Shown: positions 1 through 46,033 of the stretch, piece by piece
Layout: every line of letters begins with the position of its first letter
Position numbering within the stretch: the first letter of the stretch is position 1
IMG/VR virus record: IMGVR_UViG_3300032285_004073
Location: 64,001 to 128,000 of that record
Source of the DNA: a virus
DNA: 64,000 nt
Reading direction: 5' to 3' (one strand)
Position numbers and translations under genes: made by a program
Notes under the pieces: model-generated
The model's input: only the letters and a program-made list of their open reading frames with translations
Databases searched by the model: none
What the model was told of the DNA's origin: nothing

Positions 1-335
1 GATTGTCTATTTTTTTCAGATTGTATTCTCAATTCAAAAGGTTCAAAATCTGTAACAGGACTATATCTTTGACTAAATTCTTGAAAAGAAAAACTTCTGT
101 GACGAAGAATTTGAGCTGCTATAGCTCTGGATGTTTTAATTTCAACTGTAACACTAACCATTTCATATGGAGACCAGTGTTTATGTTCAATTAAATATTT
201 TAATAATTTAGGTGCTGTCTGTGTATTTAATTGATTAGAAGGGTTGGATACCCTTGCACAATAAACCACAAAATCTTCTGGTGATAAAACACCTTCTATT
301 ATAGGTTCTGTAATACCAACTATTCTTACTTGCAT
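1..335 (-). CDS. thyX: Flavin-dependent thymidylate synthase ThyX (runs off the left edge; not in the ORF track)
   Basis: Manual translation from ATG at 335: MQVRIVGITEP...YCARVSNP...HKHWSPYEMV...SRAIAAQILRHRSFSFQEFSQRY, containing the ThyX signature RHRx7S. Confidence 0.95.
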   Translation of the reverse strand, partial: MQVRIVGITEPIIEGVLSPEDFVVYCARVSNPSNQLNTQTAPKLLKYLIEHKHWSPYEMVSVTVEIKTSRAIAAQILRHRSFSFQEFSQRYSPVTDFEPFELRIQSEKNRQ

Positions 336-1195
336 AAAAGGATCTCTTTAAAAAGATTAATATTCTCTTCTACATATTCTAATTGAGAATCTGATATTTC
401 ATTTTCAAAAATATCTACCATCTTCTCTGTAATTTTATGTTCTAAATTAACATTATTTTCATAACTCTTAAGATTATATCCCATTAATACTGGATGTGAG
501 GTATCAATTGTTTCTATAAAAGAATAAAGTTCTCCTTTATAATTTATAAATTCAGTCGGCAAACCACATCCAAGTAAATGATGTGGTTTGGTATAATCTA
601 TAATACCATCTTCAATAAATTGTTGTAAAAGAATAGGTCTAAAAACTGAATAAGCAGTTGGTTTCCACACTTCTTTTATTCTTTTTTCATTATTAAGAGG
701 ACTAGAAGTAATAGCTGTGAAAACATCTCTGTCCATTTTTTCTAAAGCTTGCTGCCAAAAATAATCATAACCAAAGCTAATAGCTATTTTATCTGCATGT
801 TCTCTCATGAATAAATAGGAATCCTTTAATTCCTGGTAATTTTTTCCTTGGATAACTCCTATAGCCTTTCCGCGGAAAGTTCCTCTATCAAATTTTACTA
901 GGAACTCTTCAAAACTCTTAATATTTGCTTCATAATTCTGAAAAACATCTGGTATTATATACTCATCCGGCTCTAATTCATAGAGCCAATTAATAAATTT
1001 ATCATGGTTATAAGCTTCACCAAGTTCATAAAGACTATTATCTAAAATAATTTTGCGTCCTAACTTTTTTGATTTAAAGAAAAAATCTCTATATTCTTTA
1101 TTTTCTTCCAATAAATGAACTAATGCATAGTCATAATCGGTTAATCCTCTGACTCTTTCCATTATTTTTAATGGTGCTTCGTGTGCTACTAACAT
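326..1195 (-). CDS. TGT/DpdA-like TIM-barrel protein, candidate 7-deazaguanine DNA-insertion enzyme
   Basis: Motifs IILDNSLYELG, GVIQG, HHLLGCG and IDTSHP parallel the TGT-fold DSG, QG, HxLG and D(S/T)S motifs. The TGT CxCxxC Zn site is absent. ATG at 1195 is preferred over TTG at 1204, which abuts the -10 box. Confidence 0.55.
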   Translation of the reverse strand: MLVAHEAPLKIMERVRGLTDYDYALVHLLEENKEYRDFFFKSKKLGRKIILDNSLYELGEAYNHDKFINWLYELEPDEYIIPDVFQNYEANIKSFEEFLVKFDRGTFRGKAIGVIQGKNYQELKDSYLFMREHADKIAISFGYDYFWQQALEKMDRDVFTAITSSPLNNEKRIKEVWKPTAYSVFRPILLQQFIEDGIIDYTKPHHLLGCGLPTEFINYKGELYSFIETIDTSHPVLMGYNLKSYENNVNLEHKITEKMVDIFENEISDSQLEYVEENINLFKEILLCK

Positions 1196-1206
1196 ATATT
1201 TCAATT

Positions 1207-5736: not shown

Positions 5737-6495
5737 CTAGACTTTAAGGGCTTTATCCCAAACAAGAAGGTGTAATCTAGGACTAAAATTTACATGCATT
5801 GCTTTAGCATACTCTGCAACAACTGGAGCCTTTTCTATATGCTCTTCTCTAGAACCACAGCAAGGCATAAACCAAATACGGTCTCTAATTGCATTAATAT
5901 GATGCTTATCGTCAACATACTTTTCCCAAATTTCATTAATATCTTCTGATTTGTTAATAACAAATTTAAACCCTGATCCATTTCTTGCATGCCATTTAAG
6001 AACCTCTGGCTTGTAGGTTTTATCTTCTGGATCCCCGTTTGATCGGAGTTTAGGTGACGTTGTAAAAGTGGCATTAAAAGCATCTTTCCAAACTGGATCT
6101 GGCATTAAAGTAGCATTGGTTTCAAAATCAATACGCGGAACAATTTTATATTTCTCTATAAATGCTTGAATGAATTTAATTAATTGCTTCTGTTGAATAA
6201 GCGGTTCACCGCCTGTAAGCTTAAGAATAGCATTATGTGCTAAATGATTGATATAACCATTATCTTCCATAAGTTGAAAGATTTCAGCAAATGTCATTTT
6301 ATTCTTAACTGTCCAAGAAATAAATGAATCACATCCATTAGGAGAATCTTCTGAAGCAAATCCAATACACGTCAAATTACACATTGACATGCGCATAAAC
6401 ACTGAAGGTTGTCCTACAAATTCACCTTCACCTTCAATAGTATAAAAAACTTTATCATCCGACAAAAATAATGTCTCTGTATTAATATCAATCAT
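5737..6495 (-). CDS. queE: 7-carboxy-7-deazaguanine synthase QueE (radical SAM)
   Basis: FYTIEGEGEFVGQPSVFMRMSMCNLTC...CDS, LTGGEPL, FETNAT, SPKL, FSPRLHLLVW. Confidence 0.88.
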   Translation of the reverse strand: MIDINTETLFLSDDKVFYTIEGEGEFVGQPSVFMRMSMCNLTCIGFASEDSPNGCDSFISWTVKNKMTFAEIFQLMEDNGYINHLAHNAILKLTGGEPLIQQKQLIKFIQAFIEKYKIVPRIDFETNATLMPDPVWKDAFNATFTTSPKLRSNGDPEDKTYKPEVLKWHARNGSGFKFVINKSEDINEIWEKYVDDKHHINAIRDRIWFMPCCGSREEHIEKAPVVAEYAKAMHVNFSPRLHLLVWDKALKV

Positions 6496-42632: not shown

Positions 42633-43349
42633 ATGAGTGTCAAAAAACCAAAAGCAATTGTAATTTATAGTGGTGGTTTAGATTCTACGTGTCTTTTATA
42701 TAAAATTCACAAAGATAGAGAAGTTATAGCATTAATCTTTAATTATGGACAAAGGCATTCCATTGAAATAGACAATGCAATTAATAACTGTAAGAAATTA
42801 GAAATACCATATAAGGTATTAGACATTTCTTTCTTTAAAGATATAGCATCTTCCTCTGCTTTATTGGATTATAATAAAGAAATTCCCAATATCAGGGATA
42901 TAGCAGGTCATGCCCAACCTCCGACCTATGTCCCTAATAGGAACATGATGTTTTTATCAATTGCCACAGCAGCTGCAGAGTCAGCAGGGGCAGATAAAGT
43001 TTATTATGGAGCAGCTGAGGTAGACACCCATAGTGGTCATTGGGATTGTTCTTTAGATTTTTTAAAATATATTAATGAAACTATTTCTCTTAATAGAGAA
43101 CATCAAATCAAAATAGAAGCACCTTATATAACATATTCTAAGGCAGATATTATTAAAGATGGTATTAGTAATAATGTAGATTTTAATAACACCCATACCT
43201 GTTATAAGGGTGAAGAAATTGCATGTGGCACTTGTACAGCATGTTCTTCTCGTATTCAAGGTTTTCTTGAGGCTGGATATATTGATCCTAAACAATATGT
43301 AATATCAGATAAAATACCATGGAAAGATCACAACTGCCAAATCGTATAA
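42633..43349 (+). CDS. queC: 7-cyano-7-deazaguanine synthase QueC
   Basis: YSGGLDST PP-loop, YGQRH, YVPNRNMMF, Zn site HTCY...CGTCTAC..R. Confidence 0.95.
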   Translation: MSVKKPKAIVIYSGGLDSTCLLYKIHKDREVIALIFNYGQRHSIEIDNAINNCKKLEIPYKVLDISFFKDIASSSALLDYNKEIPNIRDIAGHAQPPTYVPNRNMMFLSIATAAAESAGADKVYYGAAEVDTHSGHWDCSLDFLKYINETISLNREHQIKIEAPYITYSKADIIKDGISNNVDFNNTHTCYKGEEIACGTCTACSSRIQGFLEAGYIDPKQYVISDKIPWKDHNCQIV

Positions 43350-44008
43350 AAACACAGCATATTGTTTGTGCTACACCTCTTTCTCTAGAAGATTTTTATG
43401 AGAAAAGCCAATTGGGTTTATTTATAGACAAATATAATTTCCAAAAACAAAGCACAATAGTAGCTAACAACAAAGAAGGATTGCCTAAAGTTTACAATTC
43501 TTTTATAACTGAAGAAAACAGAGACAAAAATATTATATTTGTTCATGATGATGTTCTTATAGAAGATCTTTTCTTTGCCGAGAAATTAGAAATTGCTTTT
43601 GAGAAATATGATATTATAGGATTAGCTGGTTCTAAGGTTTGTGATTTAGATAGCATTAACCCGGCTTGGCATCAAATGTGTGAAAAGAAAGACATGGTCG
43701 GAGAAGTAGCACATGCTCATAATAAAAAAGTATGGACTTCTGTATTTGGACCTACAGATTCTAGAGCCCTTATTCTTGATGGATTGTTTATAGGTGTCAA
43801 TGTTGCTCGCTTATTAAAAACACAAACATTTTTTGATGAGGATTTTGATTTTCACCATTATGATATTTCTTTTTGTTTAAAAGCCAATGCTAATAAATTA
43901 AAAATGGGTGTAGCTCCGATCAGGGTTATTCATTTTGGATTAGGTGATAGTATGAATACAAAAGAATGGAGAGAGAGTGCAGCTCGTTTTAAATTAAAGT
44001 ATAATTGA
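43319..44008 (+). CDS. GT2-like glycosyltransferase (Glyco_tranf_2_5-like)
   Basis: IFVHDDV, IIGLAG, LDGLFIGVN, FDEDFDFHHYDISFC. Confidence 0.8.
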   Translation: MERSQLPNRIKTQHIVCATPLSLEDFYEKSQLGLFIDKYNFQKQSTIVANNKEGLPKVYNSFITEENRDKNIIFVHDDVLIEDLFFAEKLEIAFEKYDIIGLAGSKVCDLDSINPAWHQMCEKKDMVGEVAHAHNKKVWTSVFGPTDSRALILDGLFIGVNVARLLKTQTFFDEDFDFHHYDISFCLKANANKLKMGVAPIRVIHFGLGDSMNTKEWRESAARFKLKYN

Positions 44009-44011
44009 TTT

Positions 44012-44665
44012 ATGTGCGGAATATACGGAAATATAAATCATGCTGAATTTTATAGACTTTACAAATTAAATAAATCTCGTGGCAGTTATAGTACTGGGTT
44101 TCTTTTTATTGATAATAAAGAATATGAAGTGAAGAAAACCAATGAAGATGTTTCTTATTATCCTATAGCTTTAAAAAAATATTATTTAGGACATAACAGA
44201 GCCCCTACTACAGATGAAAATGGCAAAGGATTGACTGGTTGTCACCCTTTTATCTATGGTAAAGCTATAGCAGCTCATAATGGTATTATTTCCAATACAG
44301 ATATTTTAGAAAATGAATATAAAATTAAATTTGATGTAGATAGTCAATGGATACCTTTTCTTTATGATTATTTTAAAAGGAATAATAATCAATCAGAAAA
44401 TGCATTCCGTCTCGCTTTATTGGAATTAGAAGGAACATATGGAATTTGGCTTTATGATATAGATGAAGAAATTGTATTTGTATCAAGAAGTGATAATACA
44501 GTTTACTGGGATGATGAAAAAATATCCTTTACATCCATTAGAGATGATATGCATAAAAATTTAATGCCGCAGGGCGCTATTTACAAAAAAGAAAATAATG
44601 AACCGTTTAAAGATATAAACGAAAACAATAGGTTGAATATTAAACAGAAGTATTTTATTATATAA
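44012..44665 (+). CDS. Stand-alone class II (Ntn) glutamine amidotransferase
   Basis: N-terminal MCGI, GHNRAPT, HPF, HNGII, DSQ; no SIS or synthetase domain. Confidence 0.88.
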   Translation: MCGIYGNINHAEFYRLYKLNKSRGSYSTGFLFIDNKEYEVKKTNEDVSYYPIALKKYYLGHNRAPTTDENGKGLTGCHPFIYGKAIAAHNGIISNTDILENEYKIKFDVDSQWIPFLYDYFKRNNNQSENAFRLALLELEGTYGIWLYDIDEEIVFVSRSDNTVYWDDEKISFTSIRDDMHKNLMPQGAIYKKENNEPFKDINENNRLNIKQKYFII

Positions 44666-44668
44666 GTT

Positions 44669-45238
44669 ATGAGTTATTTTAAACAAGATTACAATGGTGA
44701 TTTAATCCACAAGAGATTTGGATACGAGCATTTTAAAAAAGATTATAATCCCTTAGGAGTTATTATTGCCTTTAGAGGCAATATGGATGTTACAACCAAT
44801 CTCATTGATTTAGAAGATAAAATTAATAATGATTTTATTTATTCAGATGATGCTTTAAACTTTTGCTGGGAAATCCCTAATATTTGTCCTATCGGTGCAG
44901 TTTTCTTTCAGAGACTTTTTGCTCGTTATATCGGAGATGAATTAGCTAGCGGTCGTTATGGAAAATTAAATGTTAAGGTAGATGGAGATGATATAATGAT
45001 CATTAGACCAGGCGACGCAAAGTACGGCAAAGCTAGTGTTAGTATTACTATGGTTACTAATAATGCAGCAGTAGGACATCTTGGTTTAAATATTAAAGCA
45101 GGACCTAAGGCTCCTACCTTTGCATTTTCACTCTTATTAGATGATGCAGATACTGCTTGGCTAACCAATAGAGTTAAAGAAATATTTTATGAGACTATTA
45201 AAGATTGTTTCACCGCCACTACAAAGGTTTGTGTTTAA
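44669..45238 (+). CDS. DUF366-like protein (BPL/LplA/class II aaRS-like fold)
   Basis: Y.G..I, IIAFRG.MDV, IDLED, FQRL, GDDI, K.SVSI, HLGLNI match the recalled DUF366 pattern. Confidence 0.7.
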   Translation: MSYFKQDYNGDLIHKRFGYEHFKKDYNPLGVIIAFRGNMDVTTNLIDLEDKINNDFIYSDDALNFCWEIPNICPIGAVFFQRLFARYIGDELASGRYGKLNVKVDGDDIMIIRPGDAKYGKASVSITMVTNNAAVGHLGLNIKAGPKAPTFAFSLLLDDADTAWLTNRVKEIFYETIKDCFTATTKVCV

Positions 45239-45630
45239 TGGTTAAGAAAAATATCATAGACGGATTATTTCCATTATTGGATTGGATTCTTAAAAAGAAA
45301 GGTAAATTACCTACAGACGTTAATTTACCAGGAACATTTATTATTAATAGATGGTTATCTATGGCAGATTCTTCATCTGCTCAAATTATTAATGCAACCA
45401 CTAATAGATGGATTAATAAAACAGAATTAACTAAAGAAAATATTTTATTATATAAATTTTATTATTCAGTTTTACCCAAATCGTTTAAAAAAATTTTTTA
45501 TATTAAAAAGCCTACCAAAGAGCAACAAGCAGAAGATTTAACAGGAATAGCATCAGCCATGGAATGCTCCACCAGAGAAATAGAATGTTATAACAAAACC
45601 CTTGCAGAATTAAAGAAGAATCTTAAATAG
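45238..45630 (+). CDS. gp62: Clamp-loader small subunit (T4 gp62-like)
   Basis: FIINRWLSM, YKFYYSVLPK...YIKK; start taken as the ATG overlapping the upstream TAA (TAATG). Confidence 0.7.
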   Translation: MVKKNIIDGLFPLLDWILKKKGKLPTDVNLPGTFIINRWLSMADSSSAQIINATTNRWINKTELTKENILLYKFYYSVLPKSFKKIFYIKKPTKEQQAEDLTGIASAMECSTREIECYNKTLAELKKNLK

Positions 45631-45637
45631 ACAATAT

Positions 45638-46033
45638 ATGATAGAAAGACCACAACAAGAAGATAGAATTCATGGACTAGTACAAATAGATAATTACAAA
45701 GGTAATTCCTTAGAATTGGATGACTGGACTTTGACCAAAGTCATGGATGATATCATTATGGTGCAATATATTGATATTAGTGAGGACGGCACTGAGGTCA
45801 ATCGCAATGGTATTTGGTTGCCTATTAATGCAGTCAATCATGTTTGGAGAATAGGCAGAGTTATATTAGCAGGACCTAATTGTAAAACAGTAAAAGAAGG
45901 AGATAATATTGTATTCCCAAATGATAAAGGCATACAAGTTTCGAGTTTAAATGATTTGAAGCATATTGTTTTCTTGAATGAAGCTCGCATATTTGGAGTA
46001 TGCGAACCTAAAAAGCGTAAGAAAACTAAGTGA
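45638..46033 (+). CDS. GroES/cpn10-like co-chaperonin (T4 gp31 analogue)
   Basis: DDIIMV, NGIWLP, GRVILAGPNCKTVKEGDNIVF, FLNEARIFGV. Confidence 0.8.
   Translation: MIERPQQEDRIHGLVQIDNYKGNSLELDDWTLTKVMDDIIMVQYIDISEDGTEVNRNGIWLPINAVNHVWRIGRVILAGPNCKTVKEGDNIVFPNDKGIQVSSLNDLKHIVFLNEARIFGVCEPKKRKKTK

What the first reader, a model, noticed from the sequence alone, without database searches (positions are those of the whole stretch)
44669..45238. DUF366-like ligase-fold protein as a possible missing deazapurine enzyme
Seen: motifs matching DUF366 (IIAFRG.MDV, IDLED, GDD, K.SVSI, HLGLNI) directly after the amidotransferase. Established: DUF366 is a mostly archaeal family of unknown function with a BPL/LplA/class II aaRS-like fold, and folds of this type adenylate carboxylates to form amides. 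Inference: it could activate CDG's carboxyl group for amidation using GAT-derived ammonia (giving ADG) or acylate an aminomethyl group. That would give a function to an orphan DUF.
Basis: inference. Interest (0 to 1): 0.7.

Follow-up and report, generated by a model that had tools for sequence, protein, structure and literature searches.

The report
Phage DUF366: preQ0-pathway partner protein
This gene of an uncultured T4-like phage is a true member of the unstudied DUF366 family (biotin/lipoate-ligase-like fold); in bacteria of several phyla the same family sits between queC and queE, so it is probably an unrecognised helper in making the 7-deazaguanine precursor that the phage puts into its DNA.

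Summary
ORF 44669-45238 (+) encodes a 189-aa protein that matches Pfam DUF366 over its full length (E 1.7e-21), carries all five quoted motifs, and folds like PH0223/2DDZ (Z 21.4), then like biotin/lipoate ligases (Z 10-12).

The pathway assignment is well supported, mostly from outside the phage. In 78 bacterial species loci, DUF366 has queC directly upstream (66) and/or queE directly downstream (67), usually overlapping. DUF366-adjacent QueCs form a distinct subtype in which two catalytic-signature motifs are altered. The phage itself encodes FolE2, QueD, QueE, QueC and DpdA3, and no QueF.

The specific chemistry proposed is untested and only partly favoured:
- QueC already performs CDG amidation.
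- Bacterial operons have no amidotransferase.
- In related phages the QueC-GAT-GT module lies about 37 kb from DUF366.
- Acylation of an aminomethyl group is unlikely without QueF.

My best reading is that DUF366 handles 7-carboxy-7-deazaguanine (CDG) at the QueE-to-QueC step, as a QueC partner.

None of 8.4 million searched papers mentions the family. This scan had already reached the same pathway link on other genomes, in at least three follow-up reports. New here are the QueC subtype and the movable phage module.

The parts
44669..45238 (+). DUF366 protein (189 aa), BPL/LplA-like fold; the finding itself
   Evidence: PF04017 E 1.7e-21. AF2 pLDDT 90.6. 2DDZ Z 21.4, BPL Z about 12. It keeps the 12 polar residues invariant in bacterial operon DUF366: Y8 D47 D50 E68 Q81 R82 D108 K121 S125 H137 N141 K186.
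42633..43349 (+). QueC (7-cyano-7-deazaguanine synthase), variant signature
   Evidence: PF06508 E 1e-58 and TIGR00364 above cut-off. Motifs are SGGLDS, YGQRHSIE, VPNRN, HWDC (canonical YPDC); the Zn cysteines are kept.
43319..44008 (+). GT-A (GT2-like) glycosyltransferase-like ORF, overlaps the queC end
   Evidence: PF13712 E 1e-8. It travels with QueC and GAT in related phages.
44012..44665 (+). Stand-alone class-II (Ntn) glutamine amidotransferase-like domain
   Evidence: PF13522 E 1.9e-5, below cut-off. N-terminal match to GlmS/PurF models and to long phage families that look like Gat-QueC fusions. Its stop lies 3 nt before the DUF366 ATG.
45238..45630 (+). Unknown ORF (about 130 aa) translationally coupled to DUF366 (TAATG)
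   Evidence: The stop/start overlap is seen in the sequence. It is conserved after DUF366 in 73 of 80 viral loci. No Pfam, PHROG or NCBIfam match.
45638..46033 (+). GroES/gp31-like co-chaperonin, first gene of the conserved backbone block after DUF366
   Evidence: PF00166 E 5e-6. Present after DUF366 in 76 of 80 loci.
5737..6495 (-). QueE-like (CDG synthase) ORF, 38 kb from DUF366
   Evidence: tblastn with bacterial operon QueE: 31% identity, E 4e-11, at genome 70097-70453. The Pfam radical-SAM search missed it.
326..1204 (-). DpdA3-type DNA guanine transglycosylase
   Evidence: 37-38% identical to 'DNA guanine transglycosylase' of Flavobacterium phage vB_FspM_immuto and to the Campylobacter phage CP220 group. 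PF01702 does not detect it.

Best explanation
The gene encodes an accessory, so far undescribed component of 7-deazaguanine (preQ0) synthesis. It is a small BPL/LplA-fold protein that works at the point where QueE hands 7-carboxy-7-deazaguanine (CDG) to QueC. Most likely it binds CDG, a bicyclic base with a carboxylate, in the pocket that holds biotin or lipoate in its structural relatives. It then acts together with QueC, either presenting the substrate or helping to activate the carboxylate, so that CDG is turned efficiently into the amide/nitrile. In the phage the product feeds DpdA3, which exchanges it into DNA. Shown: family membership, fold, and gene linkage with queC/queE across phyla and phages. 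Also shown: a QueC subtype restricted to DUF366-adjacent genes, and conservation of the polar core between bacterial and phage proteins. Inferred: the ligand (CDG), the physical partnership with QueC, and any ATP use.
For: (1) Pfam DUF366 hit and fold.
(2) Gene order in 78 bacterial loci from distinct species: Bacillota such as Desulfosporosinus, Desulfotomaculum, Pelotomaculum and Desulforudis; Bdellovibrionales; Actinomycetota; Desantisbacteria; WOR-3; Pseudomonadota MAGs. QueC lies immediately upstream in 66, QueE immediately downstream in 67 (63 overlapping or within 10 nt), and at least one of the two in 75.
(3) The link survives operon break-up in both directions. Bdellovibrionales keep only queC-DUF366. 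Six Desulfosporosinus species and the G088/G089/G093 genomes keep DUF366-queE-folE with queC elsewhere. This points to the shared metabolite, CDG.
(4) All 69 DUF366-adjacent QueCs have YxQxHxxE changed to YGQRAxxxE and YPDC changed to FPDN. All 8 non-adjacent QueCs from DUF366 genomes are canonical. PMC13082051 places both motifs at the opening of the substrate pocket.
(5) In 84 genomes of one class, DUF366 occurs only in QueC-positive genomes: 39 of 69, against 0 of 15 QueC-negative ones. Fisher p = 2.5e-5, not corrected for phylogeny.
(6) This phage has FolE2, QueD, QueE, QueC and DpdA3. Every DUF366 viral record that is at least 36% complete has QueC.
(7) Twelve polar residues are invariant in both bacterial-operon and phage proteins.
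(8) hhalign places GDD(I)...K121...HxGxN on the BirA PND(L)...catalytic Lys...GxGIN. That is the register expected from the fold match.
Against: There is no biochemical datum for any family member. The four-enzyme pathway makes preQ0 in E. coli and B. subtilis without DUF366, so it cannot be essential to the chemistry. The hhalign match to BirA is not significant (probability 1%, E 0.047). There is no PF03099 hit, and no GRGRxGR-type nucleotide loop can be seen. No QueC-DUF366 or DUF366-QueE fusion was found. Within the phage clade, DUF366 is fixed in a conserved backbone block (DUF366, unknown ORF, GroES-like, and so on to the helicase). It is next to QueC in only about a quarter of loci, so phage synteny alone proves nothing. 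Cultured DpdA3 phages (CP220 group, Flavobacterium phage immuto) lack DUF366. Archaeal gene context could not be examined here.
Confidence: 0.55

Rival explanations
1. One reading: DUF366 is itself an adenylate-forming amide ligase. It activates the CDG carboxylate with ATP and couples it to ammonia from the neighbouring amidotransferase, giving ADG (or another CDG amide) for the phage's DNA base.
For: BPL/LplA fold. Lys121 and the GDD motif fall on the BPL adenylation lysine and PND motif. The gene sits 3 nt after the GAT stop. QueC-family enzymes and CDG amides are an established theme (PMC13082051).
Against: QueC already makes ADG as an intermediate, and every genome examined keeps a QueC. 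Bacterial DUF366 operons have no GAT. In the complete related phage G001 the QueC-GAT-GT module is about 37 kb from DUF366. No nucleotide-binding glycine-rich loop was found, and the BPL alignment is not significant.
Confidence: 0.15
2. DUF366 is a tailoring enzyme that acts after preQ0, on the free base or on the base already in DNA or tRNA. In this phage it would work with the GT-like and GAT proteins to build a hypermodified 7-deazaguanine.
For: Operon QueC-GT-GAT-DUF366 with 3-nt spacers or overlaps. A ligase-type fold could acylate an amine.
Against: In bacteria it lies inside the preQ0-forming genes (between queC and queE), not with tgt, queA or queF. GT and GAT move independently of DUF366 in related phages. 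This record has no QueF, so no aminomethyl group is available to acylate.
Confidence: 0.1
3. DUF366 replaces QueF: it is a non-homologous preQ0-to-preQ1 reductase, or a route from CDG to preQ1.
For: In one bacterial class, 0 of 39 DUF366 genomes have QueF, against 8 of 30 other QueC-positive genomes (Fisher p = 7e-4). Yet 83 of 84 genomes have QueA, which needs preQ1-tRNA.
Against: About 21 QueC-positive, QueA-positive genomes of the same class lack both QueF and DUF366, so the gap is not specific to DUF366. Bdellovibrionales G008 and genome G009 have both QueF and DUF366. The family is present in archaeal controls, and archaea are not known to use preQ1 (my own knowledge). The family has no conserved Cys and no nucleotide-cofactor motif.
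Confidence: 0.05
4. In the phage, the position next to QueC is only synteny. DUF366 would be a backbone gene with a job unrelated to deazaguanine, for example modifying or helping to fold a protein together with the adjacent GroES-like gene.
For: DUF366 is followed by the same unknown ORF, GroES-like gene, orf127 and helicase in 73-76 of 80 viral loci. QueC is upstream in only 20-22 of them. In the others the upstream slot holds glycan genes. All 14 helicase-related loci with enough upstream DNA have DUF366.
Against: The bacterial operon evidence is independent of phage synteny and very strong. The polar core is conserved between phage and bacterial proteins. All sufficiently complete DUF366 phage records encode QueC, and where tested DpdA3.
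Confidence: 0.08

Closest known systems
PH0223 of Pyrococcus horikoshii (PDB 2DDZ); Pfam DUF366 / PF04017 / COG2029
   Same: Same family: profile E 6.9e-47. Same fold over the whole length: Z 21.4, rmsd 2.4 A, 176 residues aligned, 25% identity. Same size (about 190 aa) and the same motifs.
   Different: PH0223 is archaeal and has no assigned function. It is deposited as a hypothetical protein with six chains, and it self-interacts in a two-hybrid screen (PMC1414084). The phage clade has its own conserved residues (for example W67, C66, P70) and a variable loop at 112-120.
Biotin protein ligase / lipoate-protein ligase / octanoyltransferase superfamily (BirA, LplA, LipB; Pfam PF03099)
   Same: Core fold (Z 10-12 over about 150-165 residues). 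The GDD(I)...K...HxGxN motifs line up with the BirA PND(L)...catalytic Lys...GxGIN motifs.
   Different: No PF03099 match, and the profile-profile alignment is not significant. The glycine-rich biotin/ATP loop and the C-terminal domain of BPL/LplA are missing. No acceptor protein is known. The genomic partners are preQ0 enzymes, not carboxylases or 2-oxoacid dehydrogenases.
Canonical four-enzyme preQ0 pathway (FolE/FolE2, QueD, QueE, QueC) and phage DpdA systems (Hutinet 2019; Cui 2023, PMC10516641)
   Same: The phage has FolE2, QueD, QueE, QueC and DpdA3, as do the CP220 group and the Flavobacterium phage immuto group.
   Different: Those described systems have no DUF366: only one unrelated record among 50,697 phage records matches. 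The accessory enzymes named so far (DpdL, DpdM, DpdN, Gat-QueC, ArcS2, QueF) are of other folds. Here QueC and GAT are separate genes, with a GT-like gene between them.
QueC-family diversification (QatC, Cap9; PMC13082051)
   Same: Variation of the YxQxHxxE and YPDC signature motifs marks functional subtypes of QueC.
   Different: The FPDN / His-less subtype found next to DUF366 stays inside queD/queE/folE operons. It is therefore still a biosynthetic enzyme, not a defence protein. The main text of that paper does not mention DUF366, and its supplementary tables could not be read.

Membership tests
Pfam DUF366 (PF04017) | Profile HMM score above the curated gathering threshold over the full domain | tested here: met
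   77 bits against a cut-off of 29.9, E 1.7e-21, profile positions 10-183 of 184. 76.5 bits in the six-frame genome search.
Pfam DUF366 (PF04017) | Fold of the only solved member (2DDZ) | tested here: met
   Z 21.4, rmsd 2.4 A, 176 of 189 residues aligned. Foldseek E 1.1e-12, TM 0.78.
Pfam DUF366 (PF04017) | Family-wide conserved polar residues (Y-x-G; D-x-(E)D; E68; QR; G(D)D; K-x-S-x-S; H-x-G-x-N; C-terminal K) | tested here: met
   All are present in P0001 and in 14 of 14 phage representatives. They are identical to the columns that are at least 95% conserved in 78 bacterial proteins.
BPL/LplA/LipB superfamily (PF03099) | Sequence-profile membership | tested here: not met
   No PF03099 match at E <= 0.01. 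hhalign against BirA probability 1.1%; against LplA-like no relevant alignment. A PDB profile search finds only 2DDZ.
BPL/LplA/LipB superfamily (PF03099) | Shared catalytic-domain fold | tested here: met
   BPL 2EJ9 Z 12.1, BirA 3RUX Z 11.8, LipB 2QHT Z 11.1, LplA 2ARS Z 10.0, well above the following unrelated rows.
BPL/LplA/LipB superfamily (PF03099) | Conserved active-site lysine on the central strand, after the (P/R)ND motif | tested here: inconclusive
   K121 and G106-D107-D108 align with BirA K185 and P176-N177-D178, but only in a non-significant hhalign alignment. No residue-level structural superposition was available.
BPL/LplA/LipB superfamily (PF03099) | Glycine-rich nucleotide/biotin loop (GRGRxGR in BPL; RRxxGGGxV in LplA, from my own knowledge) | tested here: not met
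   No such motif occurs in the sequence or in the family consensus. The only candidate, F-R-G at 35-37, is not conserved across the family.
Component of 7-deazaguanine (preQ0) biosynthesis | Conserved operon linkage with known pathway genes in phylogenetically distant genomes | tested here: met
   QueC is upstream in 66 and QueE downstream in 67 of 78 loci, across at least five bacterial phyla. QueC lies within 1.3 kb in this phage and in 20-22 of 80 viral loci.
Component of 7-deazaguanine (preQ0) biosynthesis | Genome-level co-occurrence with the pathway | tested here: met
   39 of 39 DUF366 genomes are QueC-positive, against 0 of 15 QueC-negative genomes. The phage record has FolE2, QueD, QueE, QueC and DpdA3. 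Not corrected for phylogeny.
Component of 7-deazaguanine (preQ0) biosynthesis | Demonstrated biochemical or genetic role | not testable with these tools
   No paper in the searched library mentions DUF366, PF04017 or COG2029. An experiment is needed.

The most novel reading that the evidence does not exclude
QueC and DUF366 form a two-subunit CDG-to-preQ0 synthase. In the FPDN-type QueCs the histidine of YxQxHxxE and the tyrosine and cysteine of YPDC, at the mouth of the substrate pocket, have been given up. DUF366 docks there and supplies substrate binding and catalytic groups in trans, possibly performing the first, carboxylate-adenylating half-reaction. If so, the textbook four-enzyme preQ0 pathway is a five-component pathway in many anaerobic bacteria, some archaea and a large clade of uncultured T4-like phages.
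Probability: 0.3. Interest if true: 0.8.

Novelty: new variant of a known kind. Interest (0 to 1): 0.68.

Why it matters
The route from GTP to preQ0 is regarded as solved, with four enzymes. It underlies queuosine, archaeosine and the 7-deazaguanine DNA modifications that phages use against restriction. A fifth, conserved protein wedged between queC and queE in many bacteria, and carried by hundreds of uncultured T4-like phages, has no published function. It would give a role to an orphan family with a solved structure. It would also explain a divergent QueC subtype, and it offers a direct experiment: QueC with and without DUF366. For phage biology, it shows that this clade carries the precursor machinery as a fixed backbone gene plus a movable QueC-GAT-GT module.

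Tried and rejected
Context was obtained with the search for related loci and scripts instead.
A single bacterial protein (P0208) had to be used, so the 80 cellular loci are biased towards its relatives, and no archaeal locus was obtained. Archaeal gene context is therefore untested here. Only presence in the two methanogen control genomes was seen.
- **A sequence-level link to BPL/LplA** failed. Only the fold supports it.
- **Fusions with QueC or QueE** were not found. Only three Clp_N-DUF366 clusters and one probable mis-call turned up.
- **A co-loss test in phages was not possible.** The question was whether clade members without DUF366 also lack QueC and DpdA. Every helicase-related locus with enough upstream DNA has DUF366, and small viral fragments say nothing about distant genes.
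- **The QueF-replacement idea** was considered and largely rejected.
- **The only hit among cultured phage records**, Microcystis phage MaAM05, lies among bacterial-type genes and gives no pathway context.
No pocket analysis or docking was done.
- **No complex prediction** (QueC+DUF366) could be run with the single-chain tool.

Full report
**The observation**

The ORF at 44669-45238 (+) is open, starts with ATG and encodes 189 residues.

The protein matches Pfam DUF366 (PF04017) at E 1.7e-21. That is 77 bits against a gathering score of 29.9, over profile positions 10-183 of 184. It has no PHROG or NCBIfam family.

It lies in a tightly packed + strand unit:
- QueC, 42633-43349 (PF06508, E 1e-58).
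- A GT2-like ORF, 43319-44008, which overlaps the end of queC.
- A stand-alone class-II glutaminase-like ORF, 44012-44665.
- DUF366, which starts 3 nt after the glutaminase stop.
- An unknown ORF whose ATG overlaps the DUF366 stop (TAATG at 45236-45240).
- A GroES/gp31-like gene.

**Fold**

An AlphaFold2 model built on 30 homologues has mean pLDDT 90.6.
- Its best structural match is 2DDZ, the DUF366 protein PH0223 of Pyrococcus horikoshii: Z 21.4, rmsd 2.4 A, 176 residues aligned.
- Next come biotin protein ligases (Z 11-12), LipB (Z 11.1) and LplA (Z 9-10).
- Class II aminoacyl-tRNA synthetases follow much lower, at Z about 6.

So the fold statement is right. At sequence level, however, the protein is not a member of PF03099. 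A profile-profile comparison with BirA is not significant (probability 1%, E 0.047). Even so, the alignment it proposes is the expected one: GDD(I) on PND(L), K121 on the BirA active-site lysine, and HxGxN on GxGIN. The glycine-rich nucleotide/biotin loop of BPL/LplA has no counterpart. ATP-dependent adenylation is therefore an inference from the fold, not something the sequence shows.

**Distribution**

The family is small: 396 clusters at 50% identity in 1.84 billion representatives. The best 150 are all stand-alone proteins of about 180-236 aa. It is not 'mostly archaeal':
- More than 1100 close relatives of the phage protein exist, many on contigs of 100-230 kb.
- 503 IMG/VR contigs encode one.
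- The largest ESM-Atlas cluster is 75% viral.
- It is common in bacteria.
- Among 50,697 cultured or deposited phage records only one matches (MaAM05), in a bacterial-looking context.

**The phage context is less telling than it looks**

The window belongs to a 176.8-kb, roughly 82% complete record of an uncultured T4-like phage. It has no close cultured relative.

In 80 related viral loci, DUF366 is followed by the same block in 73-76 cases: unknown ORF, GroES-like gene, orf127 and helicase. QueC, GT and GAT lie upstream in only 20-22. In the other loci the upstream slot holds variable sugar genes: GDP-mannose dehydratase, DegT aminotransferase, GT2/GT10/GT11/GT47 and UDP-galactopyranose mutase.

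In the complete 209-kb relative G001, QueC, GAT and GT sit together about 37 kb from DUF366. The same is true of fragment G002. So QueC-GAT-GT is a movable module and DUF366 is a fixed backbone gene. Its place 'directly after the amidotransferase' is specific to this sub-lineage.

At genome level the association does hold:
- All DUF366 viral records that are at least 36% complete encode QueC, and the two complete ones also encode a DpdA3 homologue.
- This record has FolE2, QueD, a QueE-like gene (window 5737-6495), QueC and DpdA3. DpdA3 lies at window 326-1204 and is 37-38% identical to the transglycosylases of Flavobacterium phage immuto and the CP220 group.
- It has no QueF.

All of these phages are one clade, so this co-occurrence is a single evolutionary observation.

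**The decisive evidence comes from bacteria**

A bacterial homologue was used as a probe: P0208, from Desulfuribacillus alkaliarsenatis, 31% identical to the phage protein. It retrieved 80 loci from different species, belonging to:
- Bacillota: Desulfosporosinus, Desulfotomaculum, Pelotomaculum, Desulforudis and others.
- Bdellovibrionales.
- Actinomycetota.
- Desantisbacteria.
- WOR-3.
- Pseudomonadota MAGs.

Clustering of their ORFs and Pfam annotation show a same-strand operon: queD, queC, DUF366, queE, folE, often followed by surE. Of 78 loci with a called DUF366 ORF:
- QueC is the immediate upstream gene in 66.
- QueE is the immediate downstream gene in 67, and 63 of these junctions overlap or are within 10 nt.
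- At least one of the two is adjacent in 75.

The link survives operon break-up in both directions. Bdellovibrionales and Desantisbacteria keep only queC-DUF366. Six Desulfosporosinus species, and genomes G088, G089 and G093, keep DUF366-queE-folE with queC elsewhere. The common denominator of QueE and QueC is CDG, the product of one and the substrate of the other.

In 84 genomes of one class, DUF366 occurs in 39 of 69 QueC-positive genomes and in none of 15 QueC-negative ones. Fisher p = 2.5e-5, uncorrected for phylogeny.

**A QueC subtype goes with DUF366**

An alignment of 101 QueCs was read against the signature defined by Libby et al. (PMC13082051): SGGxDS, YxQxHxxE, VPxRN, YPDC and the zinc cysteines.
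- All 69 QueCs that sit next to DUF366 have YGQRAxxxE (histidine lost, one residue inserted), VPNRN and FPDN.
- All eight QueCs that are not adjacent to DUF366, in genomes that do have DUF366, are canonical with histidine and YPDC. So are the QueCs of DUF366-less genomes.
- The phage QueCs are intermediate: VPNRN, H/F/Y-W-D-C instead of YPDC, and histidine kept in this lineage but replaced by asparagine in another.

According to that paper the two altered motifs lie at the opening of the substrate pocket. That is where a partner protein would dock. This inference has not been tested.

Twelve polar residues are invariant both in the 78 bacterial proteins and in 14 diverse phage proteins: Y8, D47, D50, E68, Q81, R82, D108, K121, S125, H137, N141 and K186. 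This argues for one conserved biochemical function.

**What it most likely does**

I commit to this reading. DUF366 is an accessory component of preQ0 synthesis acting at the QueE-to-QueC step. It binds CDG in the BPL-like pocket and works with QueC, presenting the substrate or helping to activate the carboxylate.

| Claim | Probability |
|---|---|
| DUF366 belongs to the 7-deazaguanine pathway | about 0.85 |
| It acts at the CDG / QueC-QueE node as stated | about 0.55 |

Rivals:
Three things weaken it: QueC already makes ADG, bacterial operons lack a GAT, and the GAT module separates from DUF366 in related phages.
- **Acylation of an aminomethyl group or another post-preQ0 decoration** is unlikely (about 0.1). 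There is no QueF here, and the bacterial position is inside the precursor genes.
- **A QueF replacement** was considered. No DUF366 genome of the sampled class has QueF, although 83 of 84 have QueA. However, about 21 QueC-positive genomes lack both, and Bdellovibrionales have both, so I give it about 0.05.
- **Pure synteny in the phage** gets about 0.08.

**Novelty**

No paper among about 8.4 million searched mentions DUF366, PF04017 or COG2029. The two most relevant papers on phage deazaguanines and on QueC diversification do not mention it in their main text. PH0223 appears only as a self-interacting protein in a two-hybrid screen.

Within this scan the same pathway link had already been reached by follow-up reports on other genomes (e1-3796443, e1-5859823, e1-5932418). 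I reproduced it independently. This report adds:
- The QueC-subtype correlation.
- The two-way operon break-up argument for CDG.
- The finding that in phages QueC-GAT-GT is mobile relative to DUF366.
- The limits of the ligase analogy.

**Limits**

- The cellular sample is biased towards relatives of one bacterial protein.
- Archaeal contexts were not obtained.
- The statistics are not phylogenetically corrected.
- No ligand docking or complex prediction could be run.

Noticed in passing
L086-L165 (bacterial loci); window 42633-43349: QueCs encoded directly upstream of DUF366 form a distinct subtype: YGQRAxxxE instead of YxQxHxxE, and FPDN instead of YPDC, in 69 of 69 cases. Non-adjacent QueCs in the same or sister genomes are canonical. 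Phage QueCs have VPNRN and H/F/Y-W-D-C.
   Followed up: yes
Genomes G006-G093 (class of Desulfosporosinus paludis): QueA is present in 83 of 84 genomes and Tgt in 5 of 5 tested. QueF (PF14489) is present in only 16 of 84, and in only 8 of 69 QueC-positive genomes. The preQ0-to-preQ1 step appears to be unaccounted for in most of this class.
   Followed up: partly
L024, L033-L044, L060, L072 etc., 1-8 kb upstream of DUF366: In most related phages the slot upstream of DUF366 holds variable arrays of sugar-nucleotide and glycosyltransferase genes (GDP-mannose 4,6-dehydratase, DegT, GT2/10/11/47, UDP-galactopyranose mutase). This is a hypervariable cargo site bounded by an AAA28 or primase gene and DUF366.
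   Followed up: partly
window 45238-45630: An unknown ORF of about 130 aa whose ATG overlaps the DUF366 stop (TAATG). It is conserved after DUF366 in 73 of 80 viral loci and has no Pfam, PHROG or NCBIfam match. The ORF list gives a TTG start at 45205, which is probably too early.
   Followed up: partly
L180 8809-9309; L181 8440-8820: In G089 and G093 the operon reads DUF366-queE-folE, then a gamma-glutamyl cyclotransferase-like (GGACT/AIG2) gene, then surE. An enzyme that cleaves gamma-glutamyl amines inside a deazaguanine operon is unexplained.
   Followed up: no
L002 (MW495066.1, Microcystis phage MaAM05, 108558-124938): The only DUF366 hit among deposited phage records lies among glyS, mtgA, secF, fabI, engB and fliM-type genes. 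This part of the 274-kb record looks bacterial rather than phage-like.
   Followed up: no
P0138, P0140, P0146, P0147, P0149, P0153, P0156, P0159, P0177, P0181 and others: Several DUF366 subgroups have lost the D-x-E-D and G-D-D motifs, and often K121, while keeping the overall pattern. They may be inactive or repurposed paralogues. Their source (phage or cell) was not determined.
   Followed up: no
P0283-P0285: Three clusters of proteins of about 346 aa combine a Clp_N domain (PF02861) with DUF366. These are the only recurrent fusion found. All are on short metagenome contigs.
   Followed up: no
L083 5675-7540 (+): In the complete phage G001 a 621-aa ORF on the opposite strand lies between QueC and the GAT gene, interrupting the QueC-GAT-GT module. 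It was not annotated.
   Followed up: no
L185 5400-7659; L187 (genomes G014, G016): In DUF366-less relatives the canonical queC sits with a YhhQ/Vut_1-type transporter, an HD-domain protein and DUF188, not with queD or queE. This suggests precursor salvage.
   Followed up: no
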